Shown: positions 216 to 58,065 of the stretch, piece after piece
Layout: each line of letters opens with the position of its first letter
How positions within the stretch are numbered: the first letter of the stretch is position 1
Assembly (NCBI GenBank): GCA_006218065.1
Contig: VBWE01000001.1
Span: 191,063-255,062 of the forward strand
From: Bacteroidota bacterium
GTDB taxonomy: Bacteria; Bacteroidota; Bacteroidia; Palsa-965
Length of the DNA stretch: 64,000 nucleotides
Reading direction: 5' to 3'
The notes under the pieces: model-generated
Told to the model about the DNA's origin: nothing
The model's database searches: none
The model's input: the letters and a program-made list of their open reading frames with translations, nothing else
Made by a program: the position numbers and the translations under genes

Positions 216-218
216 AGT

Positions 219-1094: not shown

Positions 1095-1109
1095 GCTGTA
1101 CGTTTTTCA

Positions 1110-1139
1110 ATCGCAAATCGGCAATCCAAAATCGCAAAT
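1110..1139. repeat. Solo copy of the 30-bp U element (tcgcaaatcggcaatccaaaatcgcaaatc)
   Basis: Exact 30-mer that contains a 9-bp direct repeat tcgcaaatc spaced 21 bp centre to centre. Abuts the stop codon of the 1139-1822 gene. Confidence 0.7.
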
Positions 1140-1822: not shown

Positions 1823-1875
1823 GATATGTTGTTTTGTGTGTGATCTTTATCAAGAACCTTGCCTAAAGATAGCAA

Positions 1876-2048
1876 ATCTATTTTCGATTTTGGATTGCCG
1901 ATTTGCGATTTTAAACATATGGACGTTAGTGTCTTTGCGCCTTAGCGGTGAAAAAACCGGGATACAAGTTTCACCGCGAAGACACGAAGGCACTAAAACT
2001 TTTGTGGCATCATTTCAATTGCAAATCGGCAATCCAAAATCGCAAATC
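1876..2048. repeat. MITE-like unit: RC(U) at about 1884-1908 and U at 2019-2048 as terminal inverted repeats, flanking a ~110-bp spacer with nested hairpins
   Basis: tcgattttggattgccgatttgcga ... ttgcaaatcggcaatccaaaatcgcaaatc. Internal inverted repeats gtgtctttgcg/cgcgaagacac and cggtgaaa/tttcaccg. Confidence 0.6.
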
Positions 2049-2053
2049 CGTTT

Positions 2054-4890: not shown

Positions 4891-5643
4891 TTAAACGATA
4901 ATGCGGTACAAAACCGGTTTGCTCGGCGAAGCGTCGTTCTCAAAAGGCGCGAACTGCAGGTTCAGCAGGTAAGGCCCGTCGTAAACAGTATTCGGCACAT
5001 AGATCATTTCGGTAATGGTACGATGCGCCTGCGTGTTTTCCGGGTATTCCCAGAACGTTTTATGCGCGGCCAGTTTTCCTCCATCCACTTCCTTGTCCAC
5101 CGAAGGCATATCGAGCAGCAGGTGATCAATACCGCTGCCGATGATAAACTGCATGGCTTCCGCGTTTATATACGGAGGATTGGTATTGGAATAATTGGCG
5201 GTAAGCTTGGCCGGCGAATTGGAAAGCGTACGGATAACCAGCGCTTCCGGCCGTTTTCCGTCGAGCACATTTTCGAGGATGGTTTTCGTGATCACGAAAT
5301 CGCCGTCATCGCGCTGCTCGGGCAAAACCGTAACGACTTCCGCGATAAAGAAAAACGTTTTCAGTTCCTGGTTGATGCTGTAGTCTTCGTTGCTGATATG
5401 TCCCACGCATTCCGTATGCGTTCCATGCCCGTGCGGGTTGAAAAAAATATTTCGGAAATTCACCGAGCCGCCCTGCTTCACTTCGCCCACCCAGTCGCCC
5501 ATCCGCACCGGCTCGATCCGCATCGGGTCGACGTACCAGGCGCGGACGCTTTGTTCGGAAGCCCGCATGGGAATGGAAATATCCAGCGGCTGACTGAGAT
5601 CGGTTTTGTAGGTTTTGCCTTTGTGGTTGATGGTCGCGAACAT
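4891..5643 (-). CDS. Cyclase-family protein (kynurenine formamidase-like metal-dependent hydrolase)
   Basis: HGHGTHTE metal-binding motif of the putative cyclase family. Start is the ATG at 5641-5643 (MFATINHKG). The longer ORF-track start would read into the upstream repeat element. Confidence 0.7.
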   Translation of the reverse strand: MFATINHKGKTYKTDLSQPLDISIPMRASEQSVRAWYVDPMRIEPVRMGDWVGEVKQGGSVNFRNIFFNPHGHGTHTECVGHISNEDYSINQELKTFFFIAEVVTVLPEQRDDGDFVITKTILENVLDGKRPEALVIRTLSNSPAKLTANYSNTNPPYINAEAMQFIIGSGIDHLLLDMPSVDKEVDGGKLAAHKTFWEYPENTQAHRTITEMIYVPNTVYDGPYLLNLQFAPFENDASPSKPVLYRIIV

Positions 5644-5753
5644 GATGACCAAATTACTAATTAATCGATGTACTGATTTGAAAATTCGACAATTGAGAAA
5701 ATTTGAAAATGACCCGCGCGCGTTGATTTGTGCGCATTTTCTCAATTTTCAAA
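5644..5753. repeat. Copy A of a ~110-bp intergenic module (R2) carrying a 10-bp-stem dyad
   Basis: Near-identical to 6498-6610 apart from about 6 substitutions. Begins immediately at the cyclase start codon. Contains ttgagaaaat...attttctcaa and gaaaatg...cattttc inverted repeats. Confidence 0.7.
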
Positions 5754-5794
5754 TTGAGTAATTTTCAAATCGGCTCAATTGTCCAATCGGCAAT

Positions 5795-6490
5795 TCAACA
5801 TCCCATAATATTATACGCAATCAACGGCTTATCGGCATCGCGCCACAAAATCCAGCCGGTTACTTTCCGCACTTTTCGTTCGCCGCCTTCGGAATACCAG
5901 TCTTCGATCTGTACCTGCATCCAGCGGCCTTTCACCTGGAGCGGGTTGATGTCGGTATTATCATGATCTTCACCGCCTCTTTGCCCCGAGATAATTTTAA
6001 ACGGCGATTTCGTATCCGGTTTTTCGTAGATTTTATTTTCCGTATCACGGGGAAGATCGATGCTCGCCATGCTTTGGTAAAAGCCGAGCCAGGACAGCAT
6101 CTGAACTTTTTCGTTTACGGATACCCAGGCGGTTTTCTTTTTTTGCGTATGAATGATCACGCGGCAGAATTTTTCTTTTTTCTCGAGGCAGTTCATGTAA
6201 ATGCGCGCCTTTTCAACCGACGTATTGAAATATTCGGGCTGCAGCCATTCGGCGATACTGTCTTTCGGTGAATCGGAAATCATCTTTACGCTGTACGGAC
6301 TTGCCGAATCGAACCGAAAGGTTACTTCGAACCAGGGTGTTTTATCCGTCGCCGGATTTTCCCAGAAACTCAGCGTGACCTGCTGATCAAGGGCGGCATG
6401 TACTACACCGATGCCGTAATTTTTTTCAAAATTTCCCGCGTGAAGCAGGGGAAAAAGAAAAAGCGCGCAAACGAAGAAAACGTGTTTCAT
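5795..6490 (-). CDS. Secreted hypothetical protein (about 231 aa)
   Basis: Signal peptide MKHVFFVCALFLFPLLHA, using the ATG at 6488-6490. No recognisable domain. Bracketed by the two R2 copies. Confidence 0.5.
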   Translation of the reverse strand: MKHVFFVCALFLFPLLHAGNFEKNYGIGVVHAALDQQVTLSFWENPATDKTPWFEVTFRFDSASPYSVKMISDSPKDSIAEWLQPEYFNTSVEKARIYMNCLEKKEKFCRVIIHTQKKKTAWVSVNEKVQMLSWLGFYQSMASIDLPRDTENKIYEKPDTKSPFKIISGQRGGEDHDNTDINPLQVKGRWMQVQIEDWYSEGGERKVRKVTGWILWRDADKPLIAYNIMGC

Positions 6491-6497
6491 GGACAGG

Positions 6498-6610
6498 ATG
6501 ACCAAATTACTAATTTATCAATGTACCGATTTGAAAATTCGACGATTGAGAAAATTTGAAAATGACCCGCGCGTGTTGATTTGTGCGCATTTTCTCAATT
6601 TTCAAATCGG
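6498..6610. repeat. Copy B of the ~110-bp R2 module
   Basis: Fills the whole spacer between the hemW stop (6613) and the start of the 5795-6490 gene. Confidence 0.7.
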
Positions 6611-25857: not shown

Positions 25858-25992
25858 ACGCCTCACCTCTTTCCTCCCCAAAGGGGAGGATGCTGGAATA
25901 TTTTAAGTGACGTTTCTTTCGTTGGAACGAAAGAAACGTCACTTCCCCGGTAATACCATCCTCTCCGAAGGAGAGGAAAGAGGTGAGGCGAT
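25858..25992. repeat. 135-bp nested palindromic element (structured MITE-like element or ncRNA candidate)
   Basis: Outer 18-bp inverted repeat cgcctcacctctttcctc / gaggaaagaggtgaggcg. Inner hairpins tcctcccc-aaa-ggggagga and tcctctcc-gaa-ggagagga. Central perfect palindrome gtgacgtttctttcgttggaacgaaagaaacgtcac. Confidence 0.6.
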
Positions 25993-36383: not shown

Positions 36384-37592
36384 TTATTCCACCGCGCAAA
36401 CAAAAACTTTACTCTCCCGATTTCCTTTCAGTGCGTAAAGCGATTTGAATCCGACTTCGGCGATGATGAAATTCACCCCGGGCGAACGGTATTCTTCCAC
36501 CACGTTGCGGATATCCAGCGCGTCCAGTTCTTTTTTATCGGTGTACCGGATATATACTTTGATCGCAAAATCCGTGTCGAGCAGGTTTTCCGCATTGTAG
36601 TTTCCGTTGAGCCGGGCCCGTTGTTTTTTCAGTTTTTTGTAGGCGTACTTATAACGGTACGTCAGCGCTGAAATATCGGACAACACGGCGCTTCCGGTCG
36701 GGTGGCTGCCGGCACCTTTACCGGTGAATGTTTGCTTGCAGGAAAACGCGCCTTCCACTTCCACGCCGTTGTATTCGTACAGGATTTTGTACAGTTCATC
36801 TTCTTTGTTCACAAAACGCGGCATGACGAATACGCGGTACTTGTCGCCCTGCTTGGCGGCACTTCCGATCAGCTTGATGCGTAACCCTTTCTCGCGCGCG
36901 TAACGGATATCGTCGAAGGAAATATTCTGGATACCGAGATTGAGCACCTGGTCGGGCTTCAGTACTACGCCGAAGGCGTGAACCGCGAGCAGGCAGGTTT
37001 TATACAGCGTATCGAAACCGGCCACATCCAGCCAGGGATCGATCTCGGCGAAGCCGCTTTCCTGCGCGTCTTTCAGCACGTCGCCGTAATCCTTGCTTTC
37101 GAGTTCCATCCGCGTCAGGATATAATTCGTGGTTCCGTTCAGGATGCCGCGGATGCTGCTGAGCAACTCGTTATCGTAATATTCCTCCAGCGTGCGGATG
37201 ATCGGGATACTGCCGCCGGCGGAACCTTCGTAAATCAGCGCTACTTTATTTTCTTCCTGGAGTTTGTAGAGTTCTTCGAAATATTCCGCGAGCATTTTTT
37301 TACTGGCGCTCACCACGTTGATCCCGTTTTTCATCGCGGTGCTTACGATTTCGAATGCTTCTTTCGTATCGTTGATCATTTCCACCACCACGTCGAGGTC
37401 TTTGCGGTTGAGTATATCGTTCTTCTCGAAAGTGAAATTCTCCGCGCCGATCTTCCGTTCCTTGTTTCTATCCTTCACGCAGATCTTCGCGATATTGGCC
37501 TGCAGCACTTCCGAATGGTTCAGTACATCGTAAAGCCCTTGTCCCACACATCCGAATCCGAAAAGCGCTACTGAAATTTTGTCGTTTGACAT
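36384..37592 (-). CDS. hom: Homoserine dehydrogenase
   Basis: N-terminal Rossmann motif VALFGFGCVGQG and a catalytic-domain region; about 402 aa. Confidence 0.85.
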   Translation of the reverse strand: MSNDKISVALFGFGCVGQGLYDVLNHSEVLQANIAKICVKDRNKERKIGAENFTFEKNDILNRKDLDVVVEMINDTKEAFEIVSTAMKNGINVVSASKKMLAEYFEELYKLQEENKVALIYEGSAGGSIPIIRTLEEYYDNELLSSIRGILNGTTNYILTRMELESKDYGDVLKDAQESGFAEIDPWLDVAGFDTLYKTCLLAVHAFGVVLKPDQVLNLGIQNISFDDIRYAREKGLRIKLIGSAAKQGDKYRVFVMPRFVNKEDELYKILYEYNGVEVEGAFSCKQTFTGKGAGSHPTGSAVLSDISALTYRYKYAYKKLKKQRARLNGNYNAENLLDTDFAIKVYIRYTDKKELDALDIRNVVEEYRSPGVNFIIAEVGFKSLYALKGNRESKVFVCAVE

Positions 37593-37806
37593 TCTTAAGT
37601 TGGTTTAAATCTTTGGTCTGTTCTTCAAAAAGCAAAAGCAAAGGGCAAAAAGCAAATAAAGTTCAGGTGTTCAATTTGTTTGCCTCTTGCATATTGCCTT
37701 TTGCTTTTAATTGTACTGACTTTTTTATTCTACTTGCTTTAAGAGTTCGCAAAGATCGTTTTCATCCGATTGCATTCCTTCGCGTTCCTGTATTTAAATC
37801 ATATTT

Positions 37807-38460
37807 CTACAAATGCAGCCCGCATTCGCTTTTTGATTTGTTTGCCCATCGCCCCGAACGGCCCTTGCCTTTGGTGGTGCAGTGAAAGCAGCCCACCGAA
37901 TTATAGCCATGCGCCTGCAGCGGGTGCGCGGGTAATTTGTGTTTTTCAATATACTCCTTCGCCTGCTCTTCCGTCCAGTCGATGATCGGGAAGAATTTTA
38001 CGATCCCGTCGCGTTCTTCAAAAACATGGAGCGCGTCGCGATACGTGTTCTGTGTGCGCATCAGGCCGGAAACCCATACATCGAATTGCGTTTTTATCCG
38101 TTCGAGCGGCTCGACTTTATTGATGGAGCAGCAGAGATCGGGATCTTTCTGCCAGGTATGATCTTCGCGTGTGAACGTGTTTTTCCATTCTTCCGGTTTG
38201 ATATCGATCACCTGCAGGCCGAGTTGTTTGGTAAGCTGTTCCTTATACGCAATCGTCTCGGCAAAATGATAAGTTGTGTCCAGGAAATAAACCGGCAGGT
38301 CGGGCATGACTTCATGAAAAAGATGCAGGAGCACTGCGGAAGTCGTTCCGAACGAAGAGGTGAACAATACGCGCGGAAAATCCGAACGCAACTGCCGGAT
38401 ACGTTCTTCGGCAGAAAGCGCGCGGTATTTTTCGTTCAATATGTCCAATGCTTTCTTCAC
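37807..38460 (-). CDS. cysH: Phosphoadenylyl-sulfate (PAPS/APS) reductase, thioredoxin-dependent
   Basis: PAPS-reductase fold motifs (SSFGTTSAVLLHL, ECGLH C-terminus). Confidence 0.8.
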   Translation of the reverse strand: MKKALDILNEKYRALSAEERIRQLRSDFPRVLFTSSFGTTSAVLLHLFHEVMPDLPVYFLDTTYHFAETIAYKEQLTKQLGLQVIDIKPEEWKNTFTREDHTWQKDPDLCCSINKVEPLERIKTQFDVWVSGLMRTQNTYRDALHVFEERDGIVKFFPIIDWTEEQAKEYIEKHKLPAHPLQAHGYNSVGCFHCTTKGKGRSGRWANKSKSECGLHL

Positions 38461-40017
38461 TCAGAAAAATGATTTATACATGATTCGCAGGCTGATGATG
38501 ATGACCACCACGCCGACCAGCAGCATAGCCGTGCGTACATTCAGTTTTTTAGCCAAAAACGCGGCGAAAGGAGCTGCAATCGTTCCACCGATCACAAGAC
38601 CGATGATCACCTGCCAGTGACTGAGCCCGATGATCGTGGCAAAAGTAAAAGAACTTGCCAGCGCCACGAAAAATTCTGCGAGGTTGACCGACCCGATCGT
38701 GTAACGCGGATTTTTTCCCCAGGCAATCAGCGTGGAAGAAACGATCGGTCCCCAGCCGCCGCCGCCTATGGAGTCGAGGAATCCGCCCGTGGCGGCAAGC
38801 GGGATGAGTCTTTTTATTTTTTTCCGGACGCGGTCTTTGCGCAGGGCTTTCGCGATGATCACCACCCCGAGAAACAGCGTATAGGCCGCCACAAAAGGTT
38901 TAATGTAGCCGTTGTACTCTTCGAACGAGGAAAGCACGTAGGCACCGACGATCGCGCCGACGACACCGGGGATAAGCAGGTTGCGGAAAAGTTTGGTGTT
39001 CACGTTCCCGAATTTCAGGTGCATCAAACCGGAAACGCCGCTTGTAAAAACTTCGGAAGCATGTACGCTCATACTCGCCACGGCCGGTGAAATACCGAAT
39101 GACATGAGGAATGTCGTAGCGCTCACGCCGTAGGCCATACCGAGCGCACCGTCGATCATGCCCGCGATAAATCCGCCGAGAATCCAAAGCAGGATGGTCC
39201 GATCGAACGACGACCATACGCTCACGGCCGCGTCACCGATACTTCGCAGCGGGATGTACGACAGCAGCAGGTGGCCGGTAATCATCAAAGCCAGCGCCGC
39301 CAGGCCGTTTATCGCGACTTTTTTCAGCAGCTTGTTCCGTTTCTGCGCAGACGTTTGCGGCAACACGAGCGTGGCGGTTACCTGGTTCAGCCGTTCCACC
39401 TTCTGTTTGAAATCGCCGCGCAGCCTTTCGCGCAGCGCGTTCAGGTTGGCGATCAGGTCGTGCGTACCGTCGGGCAGGTCTTCCTGCAGCAGTTCACGGA
39501 TGCGTTTGGCCAGCGTCGGTGATTTGCCGTTGGTGGAGATCGCGATTTTGAGATCGCCTTTTTTGACAACGGACGAAAGATAAAAATCGCAGAGTTCCGG
39601 TTTGTCGGCTACGTTCACGAGCAGGCCTTTTTCGTTGGCGGCTTTTTTTATTTTTTCGGCCAGGGGAATATCATTCACGGCAACAATCACCAGGTCGGCG
39701 GTATCGAGATCTTCTTCGCGGAAAACCCGGTTATGAATATGCAGGTTGAACAGGTGCCGGCTGATCTGCACGATCTCTTCATGGATGCCGGGCGCCACCA
39801 GCGTGATTTCGGCAGCGGGACTGTTGTTCAGCACCGCGTTCAGTTTTTCGAGCGCCACATTTCCGCCGCCTACAATGAGCAAACGCAGCTGTTCCAGTTT
39901 CAGGAAAACCGGGAACAGCGTATTGCCGGCGGAAGCCGGAGTGATTTCCGTCTCCACCTGCTCGTTCTGCACATGATTTCCCGGTGTGTTGCTCATGGTT
40001 TGCAATTCGCGCAGCAA
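38461..40017 (-). CDS. Fusion protein: sirohaem-synthase N-domain (precorrin-2 dehydrogenase / sirohydrochlorin ferrochelatase, CysG-N/Met8-like) joined to a TauE/SafE (DUF81, TSUP) sulfite-exporter-family membrane domain
   Basis: N-terminal Rossmann motif LLIVGGGNVALEKL, similar to the CysG N-terminus. The C-terminal ~300 aa are polytopic with the glycine-rich TSUP repeats (GGGGWGPIVSS…). Confidence 0.7.
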   Translation of the reverse strand: MLRELQTMSNTPGNHVQNEQVETEITPASAGNTLFPVFLKLEQLRLLIVGGGNVALEKLNAVLNNSPAAEITLVAPGIHEEIVQISRHLFNLHIHNRVFREEDLDTADLVIVAVNDIPLAEKIKKAANEKGLLVNVADKPELCDFYLSSVVKKGDLKIAISTNGKSPTLAKRIRELLQEDLPDGTHDLIANLNALRERLRGDFKQKVERLNQVTATLVLPQTSAQKRNKLLKKVAINGLAALALMITGHLLLSYIPLRSIGDAAVSVWSSFDRTILLWILGGFIAGMIDGALGMAYGVSATTFLMSFGISPAVASMSVHASEVFTSGVSGLMHLKFGNVNTKLFRNLLIPGVVGAIVGAYVLSSFEEYNGYIKPFVAAYTLFLGVVIIAKALRKDRVRKKIKRLIPLAATGGFLDSIGGGGWGPIVSSTLIAWGKNPRYTIGSVNLAEFFVALASSFTFATIIGLSHWQVIIGLVIGGTIAAPFAAFLAKKLNVRTAMLLVGVVVIIISLRIMYKSFF

Positions 40018-40027
40018 AGGTACTGTA

Positions 40028-40753
40028 TCATTCGCTGACCTTCTTTCTGAAATCCAGTTGTACCCGGTATAAAATTCTTAAAATGTGATGGCGTTCGTAA
40101 AGTTTGTATCCGCGACGCTGGTACTGCATGATATAATGCAACGCGATGTCCGACCGGTTGCGGAATTTCCAGCCGGCTCCCGCATATCCCCGCCACTGGT
40201 CAAAAACCAGGCTGCGGAAATCGTGACGCACCATGTATTCCCCGGCGAAATTCAAAAACAAACCGTTTTCTTTTCGCAGGGATAAAACATAATCTGCGCG
40301 TCCCCGCGAACGAAAAATTAATTCGTTCTTCAAAGGCGGGGTAATATCTTTCGTCGCCATCATCAGGCGCTGTTCTTCGCGGAAGCGCAACGCAAACTCC
40401 GATTTGTTCACTTGTTTCTTCCATGCTATTTCCTCCCAGCTTCTCCATTCGCGACGGAACAGGTGCGGCCCGGAATCGTTGAGCCGGTGCACGAAAAAAG
40501 CGCCTCCGGCAGAAACCGCCAGGTTGTCCGCAAAATGGAAAGACGCTCCGGCACGGGCCAGCGACTGCAAACGATATGCTCCCCAGTCATCGCGGCGGGT
40601 CTGCAGATCGAGCGAAACCGACCAGCGGTCCGACAGTTTTGCCTGTCCTTGTCCTGCAAACCAGGTCACGTGGCGTTGCAACACGGTCTGTGCTTCTGCG
40701 GGACGCGGAGCAGGCAATGCTGTCAGTAAAAAGAAATAATGTATCCGTTTCAC
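40028..40753 (-). CDS. DUF2490-family outer-membrane protein
   Basis: Signal peptide; about 240 aa with alternating beta-strand character. Confidence 0.55.
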   Translation of the reverse strand: MKRIHYFFLLTALPAPRPAEAQTVLQRHVTWFAGQGQAKLSDRWSVSLDLQTRRDDWGAYRLQSLARAGASFHFADNLAVSAGGAFFVHRLNDSGPHLFRREWRSWEEIAWKKQVNKSEFALRFREEQRLMMATKDITPPLKNELIFRSRGRADYVLSLRKENGLFLNFAGEYMVRHDFRSLVFDQWRGYAGAGWKFRNRSDIALHYIMQYQRRGYKLYERHHILRILYRVQLDFRKKVSE

Positions 40754-40760
40754 TTTTCGC

Positions 40761-41537
40761 TCAGTTGAACAGGTAGTTTTCGAGTTTCAGTTGCTGTTCG
40801 GCATAGGTGTTTTTGCGCACCACTTCACCGATGATGATGATGGCCGGCGAAGCGATTTTTTCACGGGCTACTTCTTCCGCGATCGTATCGATCGATCCCA
40901 CGGCGATGTTTTCCGTCGGGAGCGAACCGTCCTGGATCACGGCTACCGGCAGGTCGCCTTTACCGGCTGCACGGTAAATTCCCGCGATCTCTTTCAGTTT
41001 GGCCAGGCCCATGAGCACGACCACCGTAGCATTCGTCTGCGCGGCGATCTGCAGGTTACGTGATAGTTTTCCGCTGCTCGTTGTCCCGGCGATGACCCAG
41101 AAACTTTCGCTGGATCCGCGATGCGTAACCGGTATCCGCTGCAAAGCGGGCACAGCCACCGAACTGGAAATGCCGGGAACAATCTGCGTTTCGATATTGA
41201 ACGAGTCGGCGAATTCCAGTTCCTCGTAGCCGCGTCCGAAAACAAACGGATCGCCGCCTTTGAGCCGGACCACATGCCCGTGCGAAAATGCATAGTCAAC
41301 GATGAGTGTATTGATCTGGTCCTGCGTGAAACTGTGCTGTCCTTTTCTTTTGCCGACGAAAATTTTCCTGGCATGAATGGGAACATACTTCAGCAGTTCG
41401 GTATTGACCAGCGCATCGTAAAGCACCACGTCGGCGTTGCTCAGCGCGTTGATGCCTTTCAGGCTGATGAGTTCGGGATCGCCGGGACCTGCGCCGACGA
41501 GGGTGAGCTTGGGATGTATTTCGTATTTGGTTTTCAT
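40761..41537 (-). CDS. cobA: Uroporphyrinogen-III C-methyltransferase (SUMT)
   Basis: LVGAGPGDPELISLKG, VVRLKGGDPFVFGRG motifs. Confidence 0.85.
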   Translation of the reverse strand: MKTKYEIHPKLTLVGAGPGDPELISLKGINALSNADVVLYDALVNTELLKYVPIHARKIFVGKRKGQHSFTQDQINTLIVDYAFSHGHVVRLKGGDPFVFGRGYEELEFADSFNIETQIVPGISSSVAVPALQRIPVTHRGSSESFWVIAGTTSSGKLSRNLQIAAQTNATVVVLMGLAKLKEIAGIYRAAGKGDLPVAVIQDGSLPTENIAVGSIDTIAEEVAREKIASPAIIIIGEVVRKNTYAEQQLKLENYLFN

Positions 41538-41555
41538 GAGTTTGTGTTTTTTTAT

Positions 41556-41608
41556 GTGGTTCGGACCTCACCCCAACCCCTCTCCGGCAGAGAGGGGAAT
41601 TGGTTCGG
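41556..41608. repeat. Palindromic element, copy B (cctcaccccaacccctctc-cggcag-agagggg core), 18 nt upstream of the cobA start
   Basis: 53-nt stretch near-identical to 43853-43904. Contains a cccctctc/gagagggg stem. Confidence 0.65.
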
Positions 41609-41712
41609 GCCGGGTTTTTATCTTTTCTTTTTTCTGAAATCTCCTTACGGAGATTTCGATAGTCGACGTCTGCGACGTCGACTAATTGGTACTTATTTTT
41701 TGCGTAGCTCTT

Positions 41713-43842
41713 TCAACAGACTTCTTCCCTTTCCGTTTGTTTTTCGCGGTAGCGGATTATTTCCGCAAGCAGTTCGGCGGCACGCATGAGGTAGCTGCGT
41801 GCAAATTTTTCAGTGGGTTCATTTTTATTGATCTGCAGTACGAGTTCGCGGAAACCTCCGGGAACAGCGAGATCGCCGTTGTCCACGAAATGTTTGTCGA
41901 AATCGCCGAGAATGCCGTGATGCGTATTGCAGTTCACTTCTTTGGAAAGCAACAATCCCTTGGCGGCGTTCACGAAAACGCTGTAACTGTAGTAAACCGA
42001 ATCGGCAAAACGTTTTTCGGCAAATGCTTCTTCGGCGCGATCCAGTTTTTCTTCCGCTTCGAAAAAAAGCGTCTGCACCAGGTCGATCAGTACGCCCGCG
42101 CACTCGCCCACCCCGATGGCCGTCTGGAACTGTTCGGTTTGTCCCCAGTCGGTAAACTCATCGGGCGTGATATTTTTATTGTCGGCCAGCGGTTTCAGCA
42201 ACTGGTAGAAATACTCTTTGCCGCGGCGATCGTAATAGCTGTTGAAATACTCCCCCTCCACGGCGTTCGTTTCAAAATCATGCAGGAGCGATTTCAAAAC
42301 GGCGGGACCTCTTTTGCTCGGCACCTTGATAATCTTTTCGGAAATACGTCCTTCGCCGTTCCCGGTGGGGCCGCCGCCGAGCAATACCTGCAGGGCAGGA
42401 ACAACGGCTGTTCCCGCTTTAAATGAACTGCCGTGAAAACCGATCTGCGCCAGCGAATGTTGTCCGCAACTGTTCATGCAGCCGCTGATTTTGATTTTGA
42501 TATCGTGGTTGTAAACCAGTTCCGGGAACTCTTCCGTGATCACCTGTTCCAGCGCTTTCGCGATACCGGTGCTGCTGGAAATGCCGAGGTTGCAGGTATC
42601 CGTTCCCGGGCAGGCGGTGATGTGCGCCGTACTTTCCGCGCCCGCCCCGGCAAAACCGATGGCCTGCAGGGCCCTGTACAAAGCCGGCAGCGCATGCTGC
42701 GGGACGAAGCGCAGCAAAAATCCCTGCGCCGGCGTAATGTGGATTTCTTCTTTCGAAAATTGTTCCGCGATTCCTGCGAAAATCCGCGCGGTCCTGGTGT
42801 CCAGGTTTCCGAGCTGTACTTTCACGCGGACAGCATACCAATCGTCCTGCTTCTGCGGGATCACGTTGGTATCGAACCAGTCGCGGTAATTTTCATCGTC
42901 GCTGATGCGGAAAGTGGTGAATACTTCCTGCGTGGCACCCGGGATGCGGCGCGCCGGCACATCGACCGGGAACGATTTTACTTTCAGTGCAACCCGTTCT
43001 TCTTCCACCAGCTTTTTCAATTCCGCGATGCCGGTTTTCTGCACCAGGTATTTGATGCGCGCTTTGTGGCGACTGGTCCGTTCACCGTGCCGGTCGAATA
43101 CGCGCAGCACCGCTTCGATGAACGGGATGAGCTGGTCGGATGCGAGGAATTCATCGGCCACCTGCGCGAGAAACGGCTGCGCACCCAGTCCGCCGCCCAC
43201 GAACGCCCGGAAGCCCCGCTGCAGTTGCCCGTCCACGATCCGCACTTTGGGAATAAAACCCAGGTCGTGCATAAACACGTAAGCGGTGTCTTCGTCGTTC
43301 GATGAAAAAGCGATTTTGATTTTTCGCCCGAGCTCCTGGCAAACCGGGTTGCGCAGGAAGTACTGGAATACCGCTTCCGCATAAGGCGTCACATCAAACG
43401 GTTCCAGCGGATCGATCCCGGCTTCGGGCGAAGCGGTAACGTTGCGCACGGTATTTCCGCAGGCTTCGCGGAGCGTGATATCGTCTTCTTCGAGTTCGGC
43501 CCAGAGTTGCGGCGTACGGTCGAGGCTCACGAAATGGATTTGAATATCCTGCCGCGTGGTGAGGTGTAATTTGCCGTTCGAATACGTATCGCTTACATCG
43601 GCGATGCGTAATAATTGTTTCGGCGTAAGTTTTCCATAAGGCAGTTTGATGCGGATCATCTGCACACCGGGCTGGCGTTGTCCGTATACCCCGCGGGCCA
43701 GGCGCAGGCTGCGGAATTTCTCCGGGTCGATCTTTCCTTCGCGGAAGAGCTGGATTTTCTCCCCGAGCTCGACGATGTCTTTTTCTACGAGCGCTTTTCT
43801 TCCGCCGGCGGCCTGTTCTATTTCTGTCTGGAAACTTTGCAT
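41713..43842 (-). CDS. sir: Sulfite reductase hemoprotein (ferredoxin-type nitrite/sulfite reductase) with a ~150-aa C-terminal helical extension
   Basis: Sirohaem/4Fe-4S Cys cluster motifs (ACPGTDTCNLG…GCMNSCGQH). 709 aa. Confidence 0.85.
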   Translation of the reverse strand: MQSFQTEIEQAAGGRKALVEKDIVELGEKIQLFREGKIDPEKFRSLRLARGVYGQRQPGVQMIRIKLPYGKLTPKQLLRIADVSDTYSNGKLHLTTRQDIQIHFVSLDRTPQLWAELEEDDITLREACGNTVRNVTASPEAGIDPLEPFDVTPYAEAVFQYFLRNPVCQELGRKIKIAFSSNDEDTAYVFMHDLGFIPKVRIVDGQLQRGFRAFVGGGLGAQPFLAQVADEFLASDQLIPFIEAVLRVFDRHGERTSRHKARIKYLVQKTGIAELKKLVEEERVALKVKSFPVDVPARRIPGATQEVFTTFRISDDENYRDWFDTNVIPQKQDDWYAVRVKVQLGNLDTRTARIFAGIAEQFSKEEIHITPAQGFLLRFVPQHALPALYRALQAIGFAGAGAESTAHITACPGTDTCNLGISSSTGIAKALEQVITEEFPELVYNHDIKIKISGCMNSCGQHSLAQIGFHGSSFKAGTAVVPALQVLLGGGPTGNGEGRISEKIIKVPSKRGPAVLKSLLHDFETNAVEGEYFNSYYDRRGKEYFYQLLKPLADNKNITPDEFTDWGQTEQFQTAIGVGECAGVLIDLVQTLFFEAEEKLDRAEEAFAEKRFADSVYYSYSVFVNAAKGLLLSKEVNCNTHHGILGDFDKHFVDNGDLAVPGGFRELVLQINKNEPTEKFARSYLMRAAELLAEIIRYREKQTEREEVC

Positions 43843-43852
43843 GGTTTTTTTT

Positions 43853-43904
43853 GTGGTTGGGCCTCACCCCAACCCCTCTCCGGCAGAGAGGGGAATTGGT
43901 TCGG
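43853..43904. repeat. Palindromic element, copy A, 10 nt upstream of the sir start
   Basis: gtggttgggcctcaccccaacccctctccggcagagaggggaattggttcgg. Confidence 0.65.
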
Positions 43905-43930
43905 CACATTTTCTTTGTTTACATTCTCTT

Positions 43931-44011
43931 GTCTCGCTTCGCTCGACTTTACTGTTTCTTCCGTCTCGCTTTGCTCGACTTTTCATTTTCTTTCGTCTCG
44001 CTTTGCTCGAC
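43931..44011. repeat. Three tandem direct repeats, period 32 bp, with core cgtctcgctt(t/c)gctcgac
   Basis: Cores at 43931-43947, 43962-43979 and 43994-44011. A partial inverted copy cgtcgagc sits at 44036-44043. Confidence 0.65.
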
Positions 44012-44075
44012 GTGCTTTACTTGTTTTTGTTCTTTTCGTCGAGCTGCGCCCGACTTTCAACACTTTCCTTTTTTG

Positions 44076-44147
44076 AGGCTCCTGGCAGAATTGAACTGCC
44101 GTCTCCGGTTTTGCAGACCAGCGCTTGGACCACTCAGCTATGGAGCC
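44076..44147 (-). tRNA. tRNA-Cys (anticodon GCA)
   Basis: Manual fold. Acceptor GGCTCCA/GGAGCC. T-arm GGCAG-TTCAATT-CTGCC. Anticodon arm CTGGT-CTGCAAA-ACCGG with U33 and A37. 72 nt. CCA is not encoded. Confidence 0.8.
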
Positions 44148-44692
44148 AAAAATCAAAAAGCCCTCCCGGCATTGCTTCCGGAAGGGCTTTTCTTTAAACA
44201 CACATTAAACCAACCTAGCCATTTTCCAAAGCGTTTCCGGACCGTATGATACACATACAGCACATACACATGGTGAACATGTATGCCGGTTTCGCGTTGG
44301 TTGTTTTCTGAATATTCATTTTATGTTTTTCCTGTTTTATTAAAAGCGAAGAGGGCTTTCCGGTTACCCTGGAAAGCCCTCTTGCTTGATTGTTATGGTT
44401 TCAGCAAAGCCCTTCCAGCGCGTCAGCGACACATCATACCGCACATGCAGCATGTTGTTTGGAAGATATTGGCCTTGTTGTTCATGATCGTGATTTGTGA
44501 AGGCAAAGATAAAGGCAAAAAAACACGCCGGGCAAATTTTTCTGAATAATTTTTTTGGAATCCTATTTACAATGAGGGCGCGGGCCGTGATTTTGCGAGC
44601 GGGAATGCGGTGGGGAATTGTTATTTTTAGCTTTCGCAGATTAATATGCGGGAAAGAAAAACAACCTGCAGATTTTCAAAATCCCTGTAAAC

Positions 44693-45253
44693 ATGATCGA
44701 CCAAAAAGAATTTGCATTGAATTTTAACGGGCTTGAAGTGCCTGCGGCCCTGGTGAAACTGCTGGATTTTGAAAACGCGCAAGGCAACGCATATTATTCC
44801 GCGGGATTTGAGCTGGGCTGTTTTGACAAGGTCGGATTACGTTCGTATTCGGAAAACGAATTGTTCCTGGACTCCATCATCGAATTCGCCCGGGCTGACG
44901 GAACCGGTTCCACGTACGGATTCTGGCTGCGGAATAATACGCGGGATCTCCGGGAAGCGCCGGTAATCGTTTCGGGCGGCGAAGGCGGAATGCATATTGT
45001 TGCGGAAAATATACAGGGCTTGCTGCATATCCTGGCGTATGATGCAGAACCGATGGTCAGCTGGAAAAAAGTGTATTACTATAAAAACGAAACAGACCAC
45101 GAAGCAAGTCCGAAAGCTGATGCCTATAAAAAATGGATGTCCGATTATTTCAACGCGGAGCCGGCTGCCGACGCTGACAGTATCGTTAAATCAGCACAGG
45201 AGAAGTACGAGTACGAATTTCAACACTGGCTGAAAGGTTATTACGCAGGATAA
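44693..45253 (+). CDS. Hypothetical cytoplasmic protein (186 aa), possibly SMI1/KNR4-like
   Basis: No firm motif. The family guess is weak. Confidence 0.35.
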   Translation: MIDQKEFALNFNGLEVPAALVKLLDFENAQGNAYYSAGFELGCFDKVGLRSYSENELFLDSIIEFARADGTGSTYGFWLRNNTRDLREAPVIVSGGEGGMHIVAENIQGLLHILAYDAEPMVSWKKVYYYKNETDHEASPKADAYKKWMSDYFNAEPAADADSIVKSAQEKYEYEFQHWLKGYYAG

Positions 45254-45261
45254 AAACAAAA

Positions 45262-45822
45262 TCATACTGCCTTTTCCACAGCTTCTGCAAAATGCGCATG
45301 CTCCAGTTCCTGCACACGGGCTGCAAGTATTTCGGGCGTATCGCCGGGAAGAACCGGGCAGCGGAATTGCGCGATTTGTTCTCCATCGTCGAAATGTTCG
45401 TTCACGTAATGAATCGTGATGCCGCTTTCTTTTTCACCGGCGTCAATTACCGCTTTGTGCACGTGCGCGCCGTACATGCCTTTACCACCGAATTTCGGAA
45501 GCAGGGCCGGGTGAATATTTATAATCCGTTTCGGAAAAGCGCGTACTAGGTTTCCAGGAACCAGCCATAAAAATCCGGCAAGTACGATGAGACCGATGTT
45601 TTTCTTTTGCAGCAGCCGGATGGTTTCGTCGCTGTTATAAAAAGAATCGCGCGAAAGAATAACCGTTTCCACGCCCGCTGCTTTCGCAATTTCCAGCACC
45701 CCCGCCTCCGCTTTGTTGCAGAGCACCAGGCTCACGCGCGCTTTGTCGCTGTGCTGAAAAAAATCGATCAGCCTGCGCGCGTTGGTTCCTTTTCCGGAAG
45801 CAAAAACAGCGATGTTTTTCAT
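45262..45822 (-). CDS. purN: Phosphoribosylglycinamide formyltransferase
   Basis: MKNIAVFASGKGTN, formyltransferase motifs (IINIHPALLP…HYVNEHFDDG). Confidence 0.85.
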   Translation of the reverse strand: MKNIAVFASGKGTNARRLIDFFQHSDKARVSLVLCNKAEAGVLEIAKAAGVETVILSRDSFYNSDETIRLLQKKNIGLIVLAGFLWLVPGNLVRAFPKRIINIHPALLPKFGGKGMYGAHVHKAVIDAGEKESGITIHYVNEHFDDGEQIAQFRCPVLPGDTPEILAARVQELEHAHFAEAVEKAV

Positions 45823-46002
45823 CGTGCGCAAAGGTATTGTTTCCTACTTGTTATCCGTAGTCGGCGACTACGGATAACGAGAGACTATGGATAACATCCT
45901 ATAAACCCGCCGCTACCGGTTATAAACCCCGGAACATCAATTATAAACCACCCCGGCTTTTGAACATGGGATGCGCTTATTTTATATGAAAAACCACCTG
46001 TC

Positions 46003-47661
46003 ATGAAAAAATTAACCCTGATTCTTGCCGGCTCCTGCTTTATGATGAGCCTGTCGGCGCAGATAACCTATCTGCGCGACAACCAATTAACCACCTCGGG
46101 ATACCATTACACTGTTCCGAAAGACCTGATCGTTGATAATACCGCCAGCCTGGCCGTCGGTGTCGTTGAAATGAAAAACAGCAGCAACTACGAATCCGCT
46201 GCCGCCATAACAAAAAGCGACCTCGGCAGCGGCGCCAGTTTTTCCGGGAAAATGTACAGCAGTATCACAGGGCACCCGATGACCGGGGAACGCGTGCTGG
46301 CCGTGGGCGGGAATTACTATATGCTCACAACATATTGGTCAAACGTCAATACGATGGCACTCGTTAAAGTCAATGGCACTACCGGCGCTGTTATGTTTTC
46401 GAATAACCTGACCAACTCACTCAGCGGTATGTCGCCGGAAGTTACCGTAGTTGATTTTGCTTACGACGGTTCAGCCTATTTCTACATTGTGGGGCATCAC
46501 ATGGTAAATAACCAATCCGATCTCTGGGTAGCTAAGATCGATTTGAATGGCGTGCTGCAGTGGCGAAAATCATACGCCAGCACAGGTACAGAAGAAGAAG
46601 CACATAATATTTTCTTCTACCAGAACAACGGGATTTATGTCGGGGCTATTACGGCTCCCACCGCTACTCCGCTCTGGAGAAAAGGCCTGATCATGCAGAT
46701 AGATAATAACGGCGCTGTTATATTTTCGAAAGATCTTGCATGGTACTCTTTCCCGAGTCCGCACACCCAGCGCATGTTCGGCTTTACTGTTAAACGCCTG
46801 CAGGATAACGTATATGTAGTCGCTCATACCTTACTGGGTGCAGATGGCCCCGGACCCCTGCTTGTCGCAAAACTCAGCCACTTGCTGGTCCCGGTTTCAT
46901 ATACTGTTTACGACACGGGAAGCTTTGTTTATATGACGCCTTACAACGGGGAGTTTTTGTTTGCCAATAATATGCTTGTGGTTCCGGGCATCGCCAGCCC
47001 GATGAATGCAGCTATCCCCGGTTATGTGAATGCTTTTTTCAATCTCAGCAGCAGTTTTCTGAATGCCAATGACGTGGCGCTGAACACGCAGATGTTTGGC
47101 AATATTATCACGGCTACCGATGCTGCGCATACTGTTTTTTCCCTGGCGGATAATAGCAATGACGATTACCATCTTTATCGCCTGAAAGGTTCGCCGGGAA
47201 CTGCTACAATCAGTTGCGACAATCCTTATCCGTTTTACCCGATTGGCGATCTTCTTTCGCTCAATACTTTCCCGGTAAGTGTGCTGGGTCTGAAGCAGCA
47301 AACCATGGTCAGCTTCATCTGCAATATGTCGACGCTTTCGTTCTCCGAAACAGCTCCCTGCTATTATGATCCCTGGGCGCAGCGCCTCGATGGTTCCGGC
47401 CAGGGGATTGCTGCCGCACCCGAAGGTCTTTCTCTTTACCCGAACCCGGCCTCGGGCAGTTTGCAGGTACAGGTTGGCGGGATCGCAGGAAATTACCGTA
47501 TAACCGTTATGGATGCTTCAGGCAGGCTCGTGATGGAATCCGAATATAATTCCGGCGAAAAAACAACGCTCGACATCACCGCACTGGCCGAAGGCATTTA
47601 TGTGCTCCGCGTGACCGGCGATAACGGGCAATCGTTCACAAAGAAGTTTTTAAAACACTGA
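46003..47661 (+). CDS. T9SS C-terminal-sorting-domain secreted protein (beta-propeller-like)
   Basis: Signal peptide. C-terminal ~80-aa Por/T9SS sorting domain (LSLYPNPASGSL…YVLRVTGDNGQSFTKKFLKH). Confidence 0.65.
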   Translation: MKKLTLILAGSCFMMSLSAQITYLRDNQLTTSGYHYTVPKDLIVDNTASLAVGVVEMKNSSNYESAAAITKSDLGSGASFSGKMYSSITGHPMTGERVLAVGGNYYMLTTYWSNVNTMALVKVNGTTGAVMFSNNLTNSLSGMSPEVTVVDFAYDGSAYFYIVGHHMVNNQSDLWVAKIDLNGVLQWRKSYASTGTEEEAHNIFFYQNNGIYVGAITAPTATPLWRKGLIMQIDNNGAVIFSKDLAWYSFPSPHTQRMFGFTVKRLQDNVYVVAHTLLGADGPGPLLVAKLSHLLVPVSYTVYDTGSFVYMTPYNGEFLFANNMLVVPGIASPMNAAIPGYVNAFFNLSSSFLNANDVALNTQMFGNIITATDAAHTVFSLADNSNDDYHLYRLKGSPGTATISCDNPYPFYPIGDLLSLNTFPVSVLGLKQQTMVSFICNMSTLSFSETAPCYYDPWAQRLDGSGQGIAAAPEGLSLYPNPASGSLQVQVGGIAGNYRITVMDASGRLVMESEYNSGEKTTLDITALAEGIYVLRVTGDNGQSFTKKFLKH

Positions 47662-57660: not shown

Positions 57661-57792
57661 TATTCCTGCCGGGTTATTTACTGACTACGAATATATCAGG
57701 AAGAACGTAAACTACCGCAGGCCGGAAACCAGGGTCGGCGCGGCATGGTCGAGTGCGGGGTCGTATAAGCAGATTATTCCGGGGAGTCAGTA

Positions 57793-58045
57793 GTCCGGGG
57801 ACTCACCCCCCGGCCCCCTCTCTCCGACGTTGTATGTTTTGTATAAACGAAAGTCGGGGTTGCGACAACGTCGCAAAGAGGGGGAGCCACAACTTATAGT
57901 AAATGGAACTACTGTAATACCTGCGTCAAAGACGCAGGTATTACAGTTTTACGACACCCCCTCCTTTGCGGCTTTGTTTTAAAAGAGCTTTTCTTGTAAA
58001 ACAGAACAAAGCCGGAGAGAGGGGGCCGGGGGGTGAGTCCCCGGA
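57793..58045. mobile_element. 253-bp MITE-like element with perfect 33-bp terminal inverted repeats
   Basis: Left TIR tccggggactcaccccccggccccctctctccg (57793-57825). The right end, cggagagagggggccggggggtgagtccccgga (58013-58045), is its exact reverse complement. Internal hairpins include gtaatacctgcgtcaaagacgcaggtattac. Confidence 0.65.
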
Positions 58046-58065
58046 AAACTATCTATTTTTACCTC

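What the first reader, a model, noticed from the sequence alone, without database searches (positions are those of the whole stretch)
41556..43904. Identical palindromic element placed 10-18 nt upstream of the start codons of both cobA and sir
The element g[t/c]ggtt[c/g]gg-cctcaccccaacccctctc-cggcag-agaggggaattggttcgg forms an 8-bp GC stem (cccctctc/gagagggg) within longer dyad symmetry. Two two-hairpin structures (gaaatctcc-ttac-ggagatttc and tagtcgacgtc-tgc-gacgtcgacta, 41640-41690) also follow the sir stop. Bacteroidota initiate translation on unstructured A-rich leaders. A stable hairpin this close to two start codons in the same sulfur/sirohaem operon is therefore likely regulatory, through translational occlusion or a protein or small-RNA binding site. 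Alternatively it is a REP-like insertion related to the 57793 MITE, whose TIRs share the …cacccc…cccctctctccg motif.
Basis: seen in the sequence. Interest (0 to 1): 0.5.

Follow-up and report, generated by a model that had tools for sequence, protein, structure and literature searches.

The report
Dispersed BoxC-like triplex-motif repeat
The identical palindrome in front of the sulfite reductase and cobA genes is two copies of a widespread intergenic repeat of the BoxC / 'intrastrand triplex motif' kind, and it is not a conserved sulfur-specific control element; the operon's real control appears to be two Cys/Met-rich leader peptides further upstream.

Summary
An identical 43-nt core, inside a 52/53-nt unit, lies 10 nt upstream of the sir ATG and 18 nt upstream of the cobA ATG, where chance predicts none.

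Each copy has three blocks on the sense (G-rich) strand: CCCCTCTCT-gcc-GGAGAGGGG-tt-GGGGTGAGG. The third block mirrors the purine arm (9 of 9 purine-motif triads). This is the design of BoxC / PIT / 'TM' intrastrand-triplex repeats (Holder 2015, PMC4666352), with the register shifted by one base.

The core pattern occurs in more than 118 genome stretches across Bacteroidota and beyond, in 9 viral contigs and in proteobacterial replicons. It shows no strand bias and no recurrent neighbouring gene.

Four of six orthologous sir loci have nothing between the upstream region and the sir ATG. Two carry different copies of the same kind, at other positions or in the other orientation. None has one in the sir-cobA spacer.

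The element is therefore a dispersed repeat and not a conserved regulator. The hairpin leaves the A-rich ribosome-binding stretch free.

The likely real control lies upstream: a promoter, two Cys/Met-rich leader ORFs each followed by a terminator, and then tRNA-Cys.

This is ordinary: a new member of a known kind.

The parts
43853..43904 (-). Repeat copy 1 (52-nt unit) between tRNA-Cys and the sir ATG. On the minus strand block 1 is CCCCTCTCT at 43893-43885, block 2 is GGAGAGGGG at 43881-43873 and block 3 is GGGGTGAGG at 43870-43862. It is flanked by CCGAACCA...CCCAACCA.
41556..41608 (-). Repeat copy 2 (53-nt unit) in the sir-cobA spacer. Block 1 is at 41597-41589, block 2 at 41585-41577 and block 3 at 41574-41566. 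It is flanked by CCGAACCA...CCGAACCA.
41713..43842 (-). sir: sulfite reductase haemoprotein (NIR_SIR and NIR_SIR_ferr domains, twice each) with a C-terminal HEPN-like region.
40761..41537 (-). cobA-type uroporphyrinogen-III methyltransferase (TP_methylase).
41636..41684 (-). Two adjacent perfect hairpins after the sir stop codon (41684-41660 and 41657-41636). The second has a GUAA loop in the mRNA sense. An A-rich tract follows, not a U-run. They occur only once in the window.
43924..44019 (-). Three tandem 32-nt units, each containing GTCGAGCNAAGCGAGAC. They are inserted between tRNA-Cys and repeat copy 1 and are absent from the orthologous loci.
44075..44147 (-). tRNA-Cys (GCA), co-oriented with sir and directly upstream of it. 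It holds the same position in L132, L135 and L142, and a partial copy is present in L136.
44148..44539 (-). Probable real control region. It holds a Bacteroidota-type promoter (TTTG ... TATCTTTG, about 44536-44503), leader ORF1 at 44485-44423 (MNNKANIFQTTCCMCGMMCR), hairpin/terminator 1 at 44384-44342, leader ORF2 at 44319-44215 (..MFTMCMCCMC..) and terminator 2 at 44191-44148.
25859..25990 (.). Inverted doublet of two related three-block modules (tag CCTCACCT, stems TCCTCCCC and TCCTCTCC).
57789..58050 (.). 262-bp element with 45-nt inverted ends that begin with the same kind of tag (ACTCACCCCCC) and C-rich arm.

Best explanation
Both copies are members of a dispersed family of short intergenic repeats built as potential intrastrand triplex motifs: the BoxC / PIT / 'TM' kind, first described in E. 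coli.

Shown directly: each copy has a pyrimidine block, its Watson-Crick complement (a purine block) and a third block that mirrors the purine block. On the G-rich strand, which is the sense strand of sir and cobA, single-stranded DNA could therefore fold into a 9-triad purine-motif triplex.

Inferred:
- A 52-nt unit was copied into two non-coding gaps of the operon. The copying mechanism is unknown.
- In the mRNA only the hairpin would form, because published work cited in PMC4666352 reports that purine-motif triplexes exclude RNA.
- The element is neutral or nearly neutral for expression. Sulfur control of the operon is exerted upstream, by two Cys/Met-rich leader peptides with terminators.
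- At most the hairpin acts as an incidental RNA stability barrier.
For: - Architecture: 8 of 9 Watson-Crick pairs and 9 of 9 allowed third-strand triads (G.G:C, T.A:T, A.A:T), with loops of 3 and 2 nt, in both copies.
- Design match: the triad order is the same as in E. coli TMECO, CCCTCTCCC-N-GGGAGAGGG-N3-GGGTGAGGG (PMC4666352), shifted by one base.
- Mirror covariation: 217 of 253 all-pyrimidine-arm hairpins in the held sequences carry a mirror tag with at least 85% match, against none on the 3' side of the 504 strand-wise hairpin records. Among 55 variants with other stems, the tag matches its own stem's mirror at 0.80 against 0.65 for other variants' mirrors (p = 7e-10).
These span five Bacteroidota classes plus Ignavibacteria, Anaerolineae, Cyanobacteria and Xanthomonas, with several copies in single genomes. 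Similar sequences occur 5-17 times per replicon in Xanthomonas, Azospirillum and Sphingomonas.
- Context: orientation classes are (+,+) 39, (-,-) 29, (+,-) 17 and (-,+) 12. No neighbouring protein family recurs in more than 4 of 127 loci.
- Singlets and inverted doublets both occur.
- Orthologous sir loci: no element in L135, L136, L139 or L142; different copies in L132 and L141.
- Published properties of the kind: always intergenic, no strand bias, no functional class of neighbours, no promoter or terminator activity, variable between strains.
Against: - The literal TMECO consensus does not match the window or any held locus. Membership is by design, not by sequence identity.
- The source genome could not be scanned, so the copy number of this exact 52-nt unit is unknown. 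Only these two copies, plus one metagenome contig that breaks inside the cobA copy, were found. A pattern for its right flank gave only three unrelated metagenome hits.
- Two identical copies, in the same orientation and at similar distances before two consecutive start codons, is more order than a random scatter predicts.
- Across the superfamily the tag end lies closer to gene ends than the hairpin end. Some positional rule or selection therefore exists and is unexplained.
- Triplex formation was not and cannot be tested here.
Confidence: 0.8

Rival explanations
1. It is a sulfur-responsive cis-regulatory element. The hairpin occludes translation initiation or binds a protein or small RNA, co-regulating sir and cobA.
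For: Identical copies lie 10 and 18 nt before two start codons of one operon, in the same orientation. The RNA hairpin is stable.
Against: - It is not conserved in orthologous loci.
- There is no Rfam match.
- The fold leaves 15 and 24 nt of A-rich leader free before the AUG.
- The same core sits next to unrelated genes in many phyla.
- A separate, conserved Cys/Met leader-peptide attenuator already accounts for sulfur control.
- PIT elements showed no promoter or terminator activity in E. coli (cited in PMC4666352).
Confidence: 0.05
2. It is an incidental RNA-level effect of a repeat. The hairpin protects the 5' end of sir mRNA after tRNA-Cys is cut out, or it acts as a 3'-exonuclease barrier that stabilises the sir segment relative to cobA, as REP hairpins do in E. 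coli operons. This is compatible with the best explanation.
For: The element lies inside a probable leader-tRNA-sir-cobA transcript, with no promoter motif between. The G-U pair forms only in the sense RNA. Related repeats were inserted independently in the same leader in L132 and L141.
Against: There are no expression data. Four of six orthologues do without it. The window has about 4 such elements per 64 kb, which by a rough estimate that about a tenth of the window is non-coding gives about 0.5 expected in 0.9 kb of non-coding DNA, so recurrence needs no selection.
Confidence: 0.15
3. It is a classical REP/REPIN mobilised by a RAYT (IS200-like Y1 transposase). The CCTCACCCC tag would serve as the recognition or guide sequence, not as a triplex strand.
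For: The family has a short palindrome with a conserved unpaired tag at one end, occurs as singlets and inverted doublets, and often sits beside stop codons. These are all REP traits (PMC3733652).
Against: The tag is neither GTAG nor CGTC. The tag co-varies with the stem as a mirror repeat, which a fixed transposase recognition tag does not predict. No transposase-like family recurs near 127 loci. Holder et al. found no association with mobile elements.
Confidence: 0.1
4. It is an intrinsic transcription terminator, for the operon or for antisense transcription.
For: It has a GC-rich hairpin. 20 of 130 superfamily copies are followed by a T-run.
Against: In the window no T-run follows the hairpin on either strand. 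The family shows no orientation bias. PIT elements lacked terminator activity.
Confidence: 0.03

Closest known systems
BoxC / PIT elements / TMECO triplex motifs (Bergler 1992; Hoyne et al. 2000, 2002; Holder et al. 2015, PMC4666352)
   Same: It has three blocks of 9 nt: a pyrimidine block, its complement, and a G/T/A third block that mirrors the purine block, with short loops. The triad order is the same (G runs, then T.A, G.G, A.A). It is intergenic, shows no strand bias, has unrelated neighbours, occurs as singlets and inverted doublets, and is present or absent between relatives.
   Different: The register is shifted by one base (CCCCTCTCC/GGAGAGGGG/GGGGTGAGG instead of CCCTCTCCC/GGGAGAGGG/GGGTGAGGG). 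The second loop is 2 nt instead of 3, so the published consensus does not match. The host range here is mainly Bacteroidota, where the paper does not describe it. The window copies carry extra 8-nt direct terminal repeats.
REP / BIME / REPIN elements with RAYT transposases (Di Nocera 2013, PMC3733652)
   Same: Both are short extragenic palindromes with an unpaired conserved tag at one end. Both occur as singlets and inverted pairs, and their ends often supply stop codons.
   Different: The tag is not GTAG or CGTC and co-varies with the stem. No linked transposase was seen.
Rickettsia palindromic elements (RPE); compared from my own knowledge, with no tool test
   Same: Some copies of this family lie in frame inside genes, for example the MiaB-like ORFs in L013 and L121.
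   Different: The sequence and length are unrelated. The window copies are non-coding.
Cysteine-responsive leader-peptide attenuators (mycobacterial polycysteine short ORFs, bioRxiv 10.1101/834739; actinobacterial leaders, PMC1262725)
   Same: This applies to the upstream region, not to the palindrome. It has short ORFs with runs of Cys codons followed by terminator hairpins, ahead of cysteine and sulfur assimilation genes.
   Different: Here there are two tandem leaders with mixed Cys and Met runs, in Bacteroidota, with a tRNA-Cys gene between the attenuators and sir.

Membership tests
Potential intrastrand triplex motif repeats (BoxC/PIT/TM class) | Three consecutive blocks: a pyrimidine block, a complementary purine block, and a third block that mirrors the purine block through G.G:C, A.A:T or T.A:T triads. 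Stem of at least 8 and loops of 1-6 nt. | tested here: met
   8 of 9 Watson-Crick pairs and 9 of 9 allowed triads, with loops of 3 and 2 nt, in both copies.
Potential intrastrand triplex motif repeats (BoxC/PIT/TM class) | The third block co-varies with the stem across family variants, so the mirror symmetry is maintained. | tested here: met
   own-mirror match is 0.80 against 0.65 for other variants' mirrors, p = 7e-10, with more than 10 stem variants having matching tags. The set is biased because the loci were fetched with the core pattern.
Potential intrastrand triplex motif repeats (BoxC/PIT/TM class) | Many intergenic copies per genome, no strand bias, unrelated neighbours, and both singlets and inverted doublets. 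| tested here: met
   and doublets. This was shown for the superfamily. The source genome itself could not be scanned.
TMECO (E. coli-type consensus) | A match to CCCTCNCCC-N3-6-GGGNGAGGG-N3-GGGNGAGGG. | tested here: not met
   no match in the window or in any of 145 loci. The element is a register variant.
Potential intrastrand triplex motif repeats (BoxC/PIT/TM class) | The single strand folds into a stable triplex (CD or NMR). | not testable with these tools
   Only Watson-Crick folding can be predicted here.
REP/REPIN with RAYT | A GTAG or CGTC tag at one end. | tested here: not met
   the tag is CCTCACCCC with left flank W-R-R-C.
REP/REPIN with RAYT | A Y1-transposase (RAYT) gene flanked by the repeats in the same genome. 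| tested here: inconclusive
   no protein family recurs near 127 loci. A single-copy RAYT would rarely be sampled, and whole genomes were not available.
Intrinsic terminator | A GC-rich hairpin immediately followed by a U-run on the transcribed strand. | tested here: not met
   neither copy is flagged on either strand.
Known cis-regulatory RNA (Rfam 15) | A covariance-model match. | tested here: not met
   only tRNA matched in 37000-46500 at E <= 1.
Conserved regulatory site of the sir operon | Presence at the same position in orthologous loci. | tested here: not met
   absent in L135, L136, L139 and L142. L132 and L141 carry different copies. None of the loci has one in the sir-cobA spacer.
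MITE | Terminal inverted repeats plus a target-site duplication. | tested here: inconclusive
   the 52-nt unit has 8-nt direct terminal repeats (CCGAACCA / CC[G/C]AACCA) that are the same in both copies. They are either part of the unit or a copied duplication. No empty site is available for comparison.

The most novel reading that the evidence does not exclude
The repeat has been co-opted at this locus. Three lineages independently carry a triplex-motif repeat between the Cys attenuators and the sir start codon: the window, L132 and L141.

In the window the G-rich, triplex-capable strand is the non-template strand, and its third-block end faces the start codon. Folding of the displaced strand during transcription, or the 5'-proximal RNA hairpin left after tRNA-Cys processing, could tune sir and cobA output.

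More broadly, the tag-end-to-gene-end proximity seen across the family (p = 7e-8) could reflect a function or an insertion rule that has not been described for BoxC/PIT elements.
Probability: 0.07. Interest if true: 0.55.

Novelty: new member of a known kind. Interest (0 to 1): 0.25.

Why it matters
The main value is as a correction. A striking, perfectly duplicated palindrome next to two start codons is not a regulator. It is a copy of a repeat kind known since the 1990s, whose function is still unknown.

Three smaller points follow:
- This repeat kind, described for Proteobacteria and Cyanobacteria, is common across Bacteroidota in a register-shifted form. It also occurs in viral contigs.
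- Its mirror-plus-inverted design is maintained by covariation.
- Its tag end sits unusually close to gene ends.

The more useful biology nearby is the conserved double Cys/Met leader-peptide attenuator with an embedded tRNA-Cys gene ahead of the sulfate-assimilation operon.

Tried and rejected
- Rfam scan of 37000-46500 at E <= 1: only tRNA-Cys matched.
- Exact-protein look-ups of sir and of its 100% identical hit P0001: not on record. The source contig could not be fetched. The look-up of the cobA protein gave one 2.7-kb contig that breaks inside the element.
The source genome's own copy number therefore stays unknown.
- A metagenome scan for the window-specific right flank gave three unrelated copies.
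- Literature searches for the sequence itself found nothing. The family was recognised only through a search on E. coli repeat names.
- I considered Shine-Dalgarno mimicry by GGGGUGA, rut-like C-rich loading sites and G-quadruplex or i-motif folding. All were dropped. The spacing to the AUG is 19-28 nt, most of the C-rich tract is paired, and the mirror covariation points to the triplex design.
- The terminator reading was rejected because no T-run follows the hairpin and the family shows no orientation bias.
- All-against-all BLAST of 1296 ORFs from 127 loci found no linked transposase and no cys-gene enrichment.
Full report
**1. The observation**

The 43-nt string CCTCACCCCAACCCCTCTCCGGCAGAGAGGGGAATTGGTTCGG occurs twice in the window, at 41566-41608 and 43862-43904, with no mismatch. 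None of 100 shuffles produced a match. Similarity continues about 17 nt further left (60 nt, 88%). The shared unit is therefore 41556-41608 and 43853-43904.

The genes lie on the minus strand:
- sir, 43842..41713 (two NIR_SIR/ferredoxin-like halves plus a HEPN-like tail)
- cobA, 41537..40761 (TP_methylase)
- a DUF2490 protein
- a sirohaem-synthase/TauE fusion
- PAPS reductase

The unit ends 10 nt before the sir ATG and 18 nt before the cobA ATG, as reported. The stem has 8 Watson-Crick pairs with a 5-nt loop in DNA. As sense RNA it has 9 pairs, one of them G-U, with a 3-nt loop (dG about -28 to -30 kcal/mol, z -3.3). The two hairpins after the sir stop codon are also real (41684-41660 and 41657-41636; z -6.1).

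**2.

The CCTCACCCC that precedes the hairpin is not a random flank. On the minus (G-rich, sense) strand each copy reads CCCCTCTCT-gcc-GGAGAGGGG-tt-GGGGTGAGG. Blocks 1 and 2 form the hairpin (8 of 9 pairs). Block 3 is the mirror image of block 2. All nine positions would form the triads allowed in a purine-motif triple helix: seven G.G:C, one T.A:T and one A.A:T.

This is the three-block design of the E. coli BoxC repeat. BoxC was later called the PIT (potential intrastrand triplex) element and then TMECO, with consensus CCCTCNCCC-N3-6-GGGNGAGGG-N3-GGGNGAGGG (PMC4666352). The window element has the same order of triads but is shifted by one base (4G-TGA-2G instead of 3G-TGA-3G) and has a 2-nt second loop. 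The literal consensus therefore does not match the window or any locus I hold.

**3. It is a dispersed family**

The pattern CTCACCCC-NN-CCCCTCTCC-NNNN-GAGAGGGG has 25 fixed bases. My own estimate is about 0.001 chance matches in 596 Gb. It was found as follows:
- 9 stretches in viral contigs.
- The hosts include Chitinophagaceae, Sphingobacteriales, Mucilaginibacter, Flavobacterium, Chryseobacterium, Hymenobacter, Cytophagales, Prevotellaceae and Tannerella. They also include Ignavibacterium, an Anaerolineae MAG, a Synechococcales MAG and Xanthomonas.
- Single genomes hold several copies even in this truncated list: 5 in Hymenobacter humi, 6 in one Anaerolineae MAG and 4 in one Mucilaginibacter MAG.
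- A BLAST of the consensus against plasmids and chromids found 5-17 places per replicon in Xanthomonas sacchari, Azospirillum lipoferum and Sphingomonas parapaucimobilis. Almost all lie outside annotated genes.
- One copy lies in the mtlA-mtlD spacer of 1050 of 5426 E. coli genomes, beside a REP cluster.

Features of the 130 non-redundant copies:
- The consensus is W-R-R-C-CTCACCCC-AA-CCCCTCTCC-AAAG-GAGAGGGG-CT.
- Flanking-ORF orientation classes are (+,+) 39, (-,-) 29, (+,-) 17 and (-,+) 12. There is no strand bias, and the mix looks like what I would expect for intergenic regions generally. I ran no explicit control.
- Only 20 copies are followed by a T-run.
- No neighbouring protein family recurs in more than 4 of 127 loci. 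There is no linked transposase and no cys/met enrichment.
- Singlets and inverted doublets both occur: window 25859-25990, L132 and Xanthomonas.

All of this matches what Holder et al. report for the E. coli copies: always intergenic, no strand bias, unrelated neighbours, type A+B inverted pairs, and variable presence between strains.

**4. The design itself is what is conserved**

Of these, 217 carry an upstream tag that matches the mirror of the stem at 85% or better. On the other side, none of the 504 strand-wise hairpin records does.

Among 55 copies whose stems differ from the core, the tag matches the mirror of its own stem at 0.80, against 0.65 for other variants' stems (Wilcoxon p = 7e-10). 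Clean compensatory examples include CCTCCCCC/CCCCCTCC, CCCCTCT/TCTCCCC, CCCCCTT/TTCCCCC and CCTCATCCC/CCCTTCTCC.

One caveat applies. These loci were fetched with the core pattern, so the sample is biased towards genomes rich in the family.

**5. Comparison with orthologous loci**

sir homologues at 66-76% identity were traced to contigs. Gene order is conserved: purN or another gene, a long non-coding region, then sir, cobA, DUF2490, sirC/TauE, cysH and hom.

The non-coding region has a conserved plan:
- A Bacteroidota-type promoter (TTTG ... TATCTTTG in the window and in L135; read by eye, with coordinates).
- Leader ORF1, ending in a run such as TCCMCGMMC or MMCCMMC.
- A strong hairpin.
- Leader ORF2 with MCMCCM.
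- A hairpin with a T-run.
- tRNA-Cys(GCA), present in the window, L132, L135 and L142, and as a 3' fragment in L136.
- About 25 nt of A-rich leader and the sir ATG.

Presence of the repeat between the tRNA (or terminator 2) and the sir ATG:
- L135, L136, L139 and L142 have no repeat.
- L132 has an inverted doublet of a different subfamily (CCTCACTCCCTT-CCCCTCTCC...).
- L141 has two singlets of another subfamily. One lies between terminator 1 and ORF2 and the other after terminator 2, in the orientation opposite to the window's.
- None of the six loci has a repeat in the sir-cobA spacer.

The window has also gained three tandem 32-nt units at 43924-44019. The element is therefore not a conserved part of the operon's control region. 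Long non-coding leaders simply collect these repeats. The window holds about four such elements in 64 kb. By my rough estimate that about a tenth of the window is non-coding, about 0.5 are expected in the 0.9 kb of non-coding DNA around sir, so two is not remarkable.

**6. Mechanism**

Shown:
- The three-block architecture.
- The dispersal of the family.
- The lack of conservation at this locus.
- A predicted fold that leaves 15 nt (sir) and 24 nt (cobA) of A-rich leader unpaired before the AUG.

Taken from the literature, through PMC4666352:
- The E. coli elements form a stable triplex as isolated single strands, but this was not detected in vivo.
- They have no promoter or terminator activity.
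- Their loci are unusually variable between strains.
- Purine-motif triplexes do not form in RNA.

Inferred:
- In the sir/cobA transcript only the hairpin forms.
- It does not occlude initiation.
- Any effect is incidental, for example protecting a 5' end after tRNA-Cys processing or acting as an exonuclease barrier between sir and cobA.
- Sulfur control is exerted by the Cys/Met leader peptides upstream.

The mechanism by which the 52-nt unit was copied is unknown. Its 8-nt direct terminal repeats (CCGAACCA ... CC[G/C]AACCA) are the same in both copies. One copy therefore derives from the other, or both derive from a third.

**7. What remains odd**

- Two identical copies lie in the same orientation before consecutive start codons.
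- Across the family, the tag end is much closer to the neighbouring gene than the hairpin end. The medians are 11 and 59 nt for singlets, and p = 7e-8 over 63 scorable copies.
- When the left ORF is co-oriented with the C-rich strand, its stop codon lies within 1-8 nt in roughly 40 of 67 cases, by my count from the listing. The W-R-R-C flank partly explains this, because it often supplies TAG, TGA or TAA. The same is known for REP ends (PMC3733652).
- Holder et al. saw no distance trend in 23 E. coli copies.
- ORF calling here was crude (longest ORF of at least 100 aa), so this result is a lead and not a finding.

**8. Verdict**

The element is a new member, a register variant in a new phylum, of a known kind of repeat whose function remains unknown. 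Interest is low.

Noticed in passing
window 44148-44539 (minus strand); also L132 5480-5820, L135 2760-3120, L139 2600-2960, L141 2530-2930: There are two tandem short ORFs rich in Cys and Met codons: MNNKANIFQTTCCMCGMMCR (44485-44423) and ..YMFTMCMCCMCII.. (44319-44215). Each is followed by a strong hairpin, the second with a T-run, and a TTTG...TATCTTTG promoter lies upstream. The plan is conserved in five orthologous loci. It looks like a double leader-peptide attenuator that senses Cys and Met charging ahead of the sulfate-assimilation operon. It has no Rfam match. Cysteine leaders are known in Actinobacteria, but I found none described for Bacteroidota.
   Followed up: partly
window 44075-44147 (minus strand): A tRNA-Cys(GCA) gene sits between the second attenuator and sir. 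It is co-oriented with sir and has no promoter motif of its own. It holds the same position in L132, L135 and L142 but is missing in L139 and L141. It would be co-transcribed with the cysteine-synthesis operon under Cys-dependent attenuation.
   Followed up: partly
window 43924-44019: Three tandem 32-nt units each contain GTCGAGCNAAGCGAGAC. They are absent from all orthologous loci. A related GTCACGTCGAGCGTAGTCGAGC inverted pair sits in the sir-cobA spacer of L132.
   Followed up: partly
window 41636-41684: Two adjacent perfect hairpins follow the sir stop codon (11 and 9 bp). The second has a GUAA (GNRA) loop in the mRNA sense. An A-rich tract follows, not a U-run. They occur only once in the window. 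L141 and L142 have a smaller GTCGA-type hairpin at the corresponding place.
   Followed up: partly
window 41713-43842 (residues about 590-664 of Sir): Sulfite reductase carries a C-terminal HEPN-domain hit (E 5e-7). Most of the 120 listed homologues share the hit, and several are named 'HEPN domain-containing protein' by NCBI.
   Followed up: no
window 38461-40017: A single 518-aa ORF fuses a sirohaem synthase N-terminal part (NAD_binding_7 and Sirohm_synth_M) to a TauE/SafE sulfite-exporter-type membrane domain. The fusion is conserved in the orthologous loci.
   Followed up: no
loci L011-L128 (superfamily copies): The tag (third-block) end of the repeat lies much closer to the neighbouring gene than the hairpin end: medians of 11 and 59 nt for singlets, p = 7e-8. 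The neighbouring stop codon is often within 1-8 nt. This differs from the 'no trend' reported for E. coli.
   Followed up: partly
L013 2480-2510 and L121 3515-3545: Copies of the repeat lie in frame inside MiaB-like methylthiotransferase ORFs (UPF0004, Radical_SAM and TRAM domains) in a Chryseobacterium MAG and a Flavobacteriales MAG.
   Followed up: partly
L010 1-40: The Logan contig that carries the identical cobA ends inside the repeat hairpin, which looks like an assembly break at the repeat.
   Followed up: no
L136, L137 and L138, position 1: Three contigs from different runs all start inside the tRNA-Cys gene, 55 nt before the sir ATG.
   Followed up: no
L139 5112-5258, L141 5133-5279, L142 2397-2543: A conserved 48-aa ORF (MKTQFKHHIKFGSCWYD..) lies between sir and cobA and overlaps both gene ends. 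It is absent from the window's lineage.
   Followed up: no
window 129-2052 and 5640-6607: These are other local repeat families: ATCGCAAATCGGCAATCCAAAATCGCAAAT in direct and inverted copies spaced about 900 nt apart, and a 115-nt direct repeat at 5640 and 6493 (95% identical).
   Followed up: no
L144 1480-1540 (E. coli KE51, mtlA-mtlD spacer): A CCTCACCCAACCCCTCTCC-GTGA-GGAGAGGGG copy with a partial inverted partner lies next to a REP cluster. It is present in 1050 of 5426 complete E. coli genomes and is not annotated.
   Followed up: no
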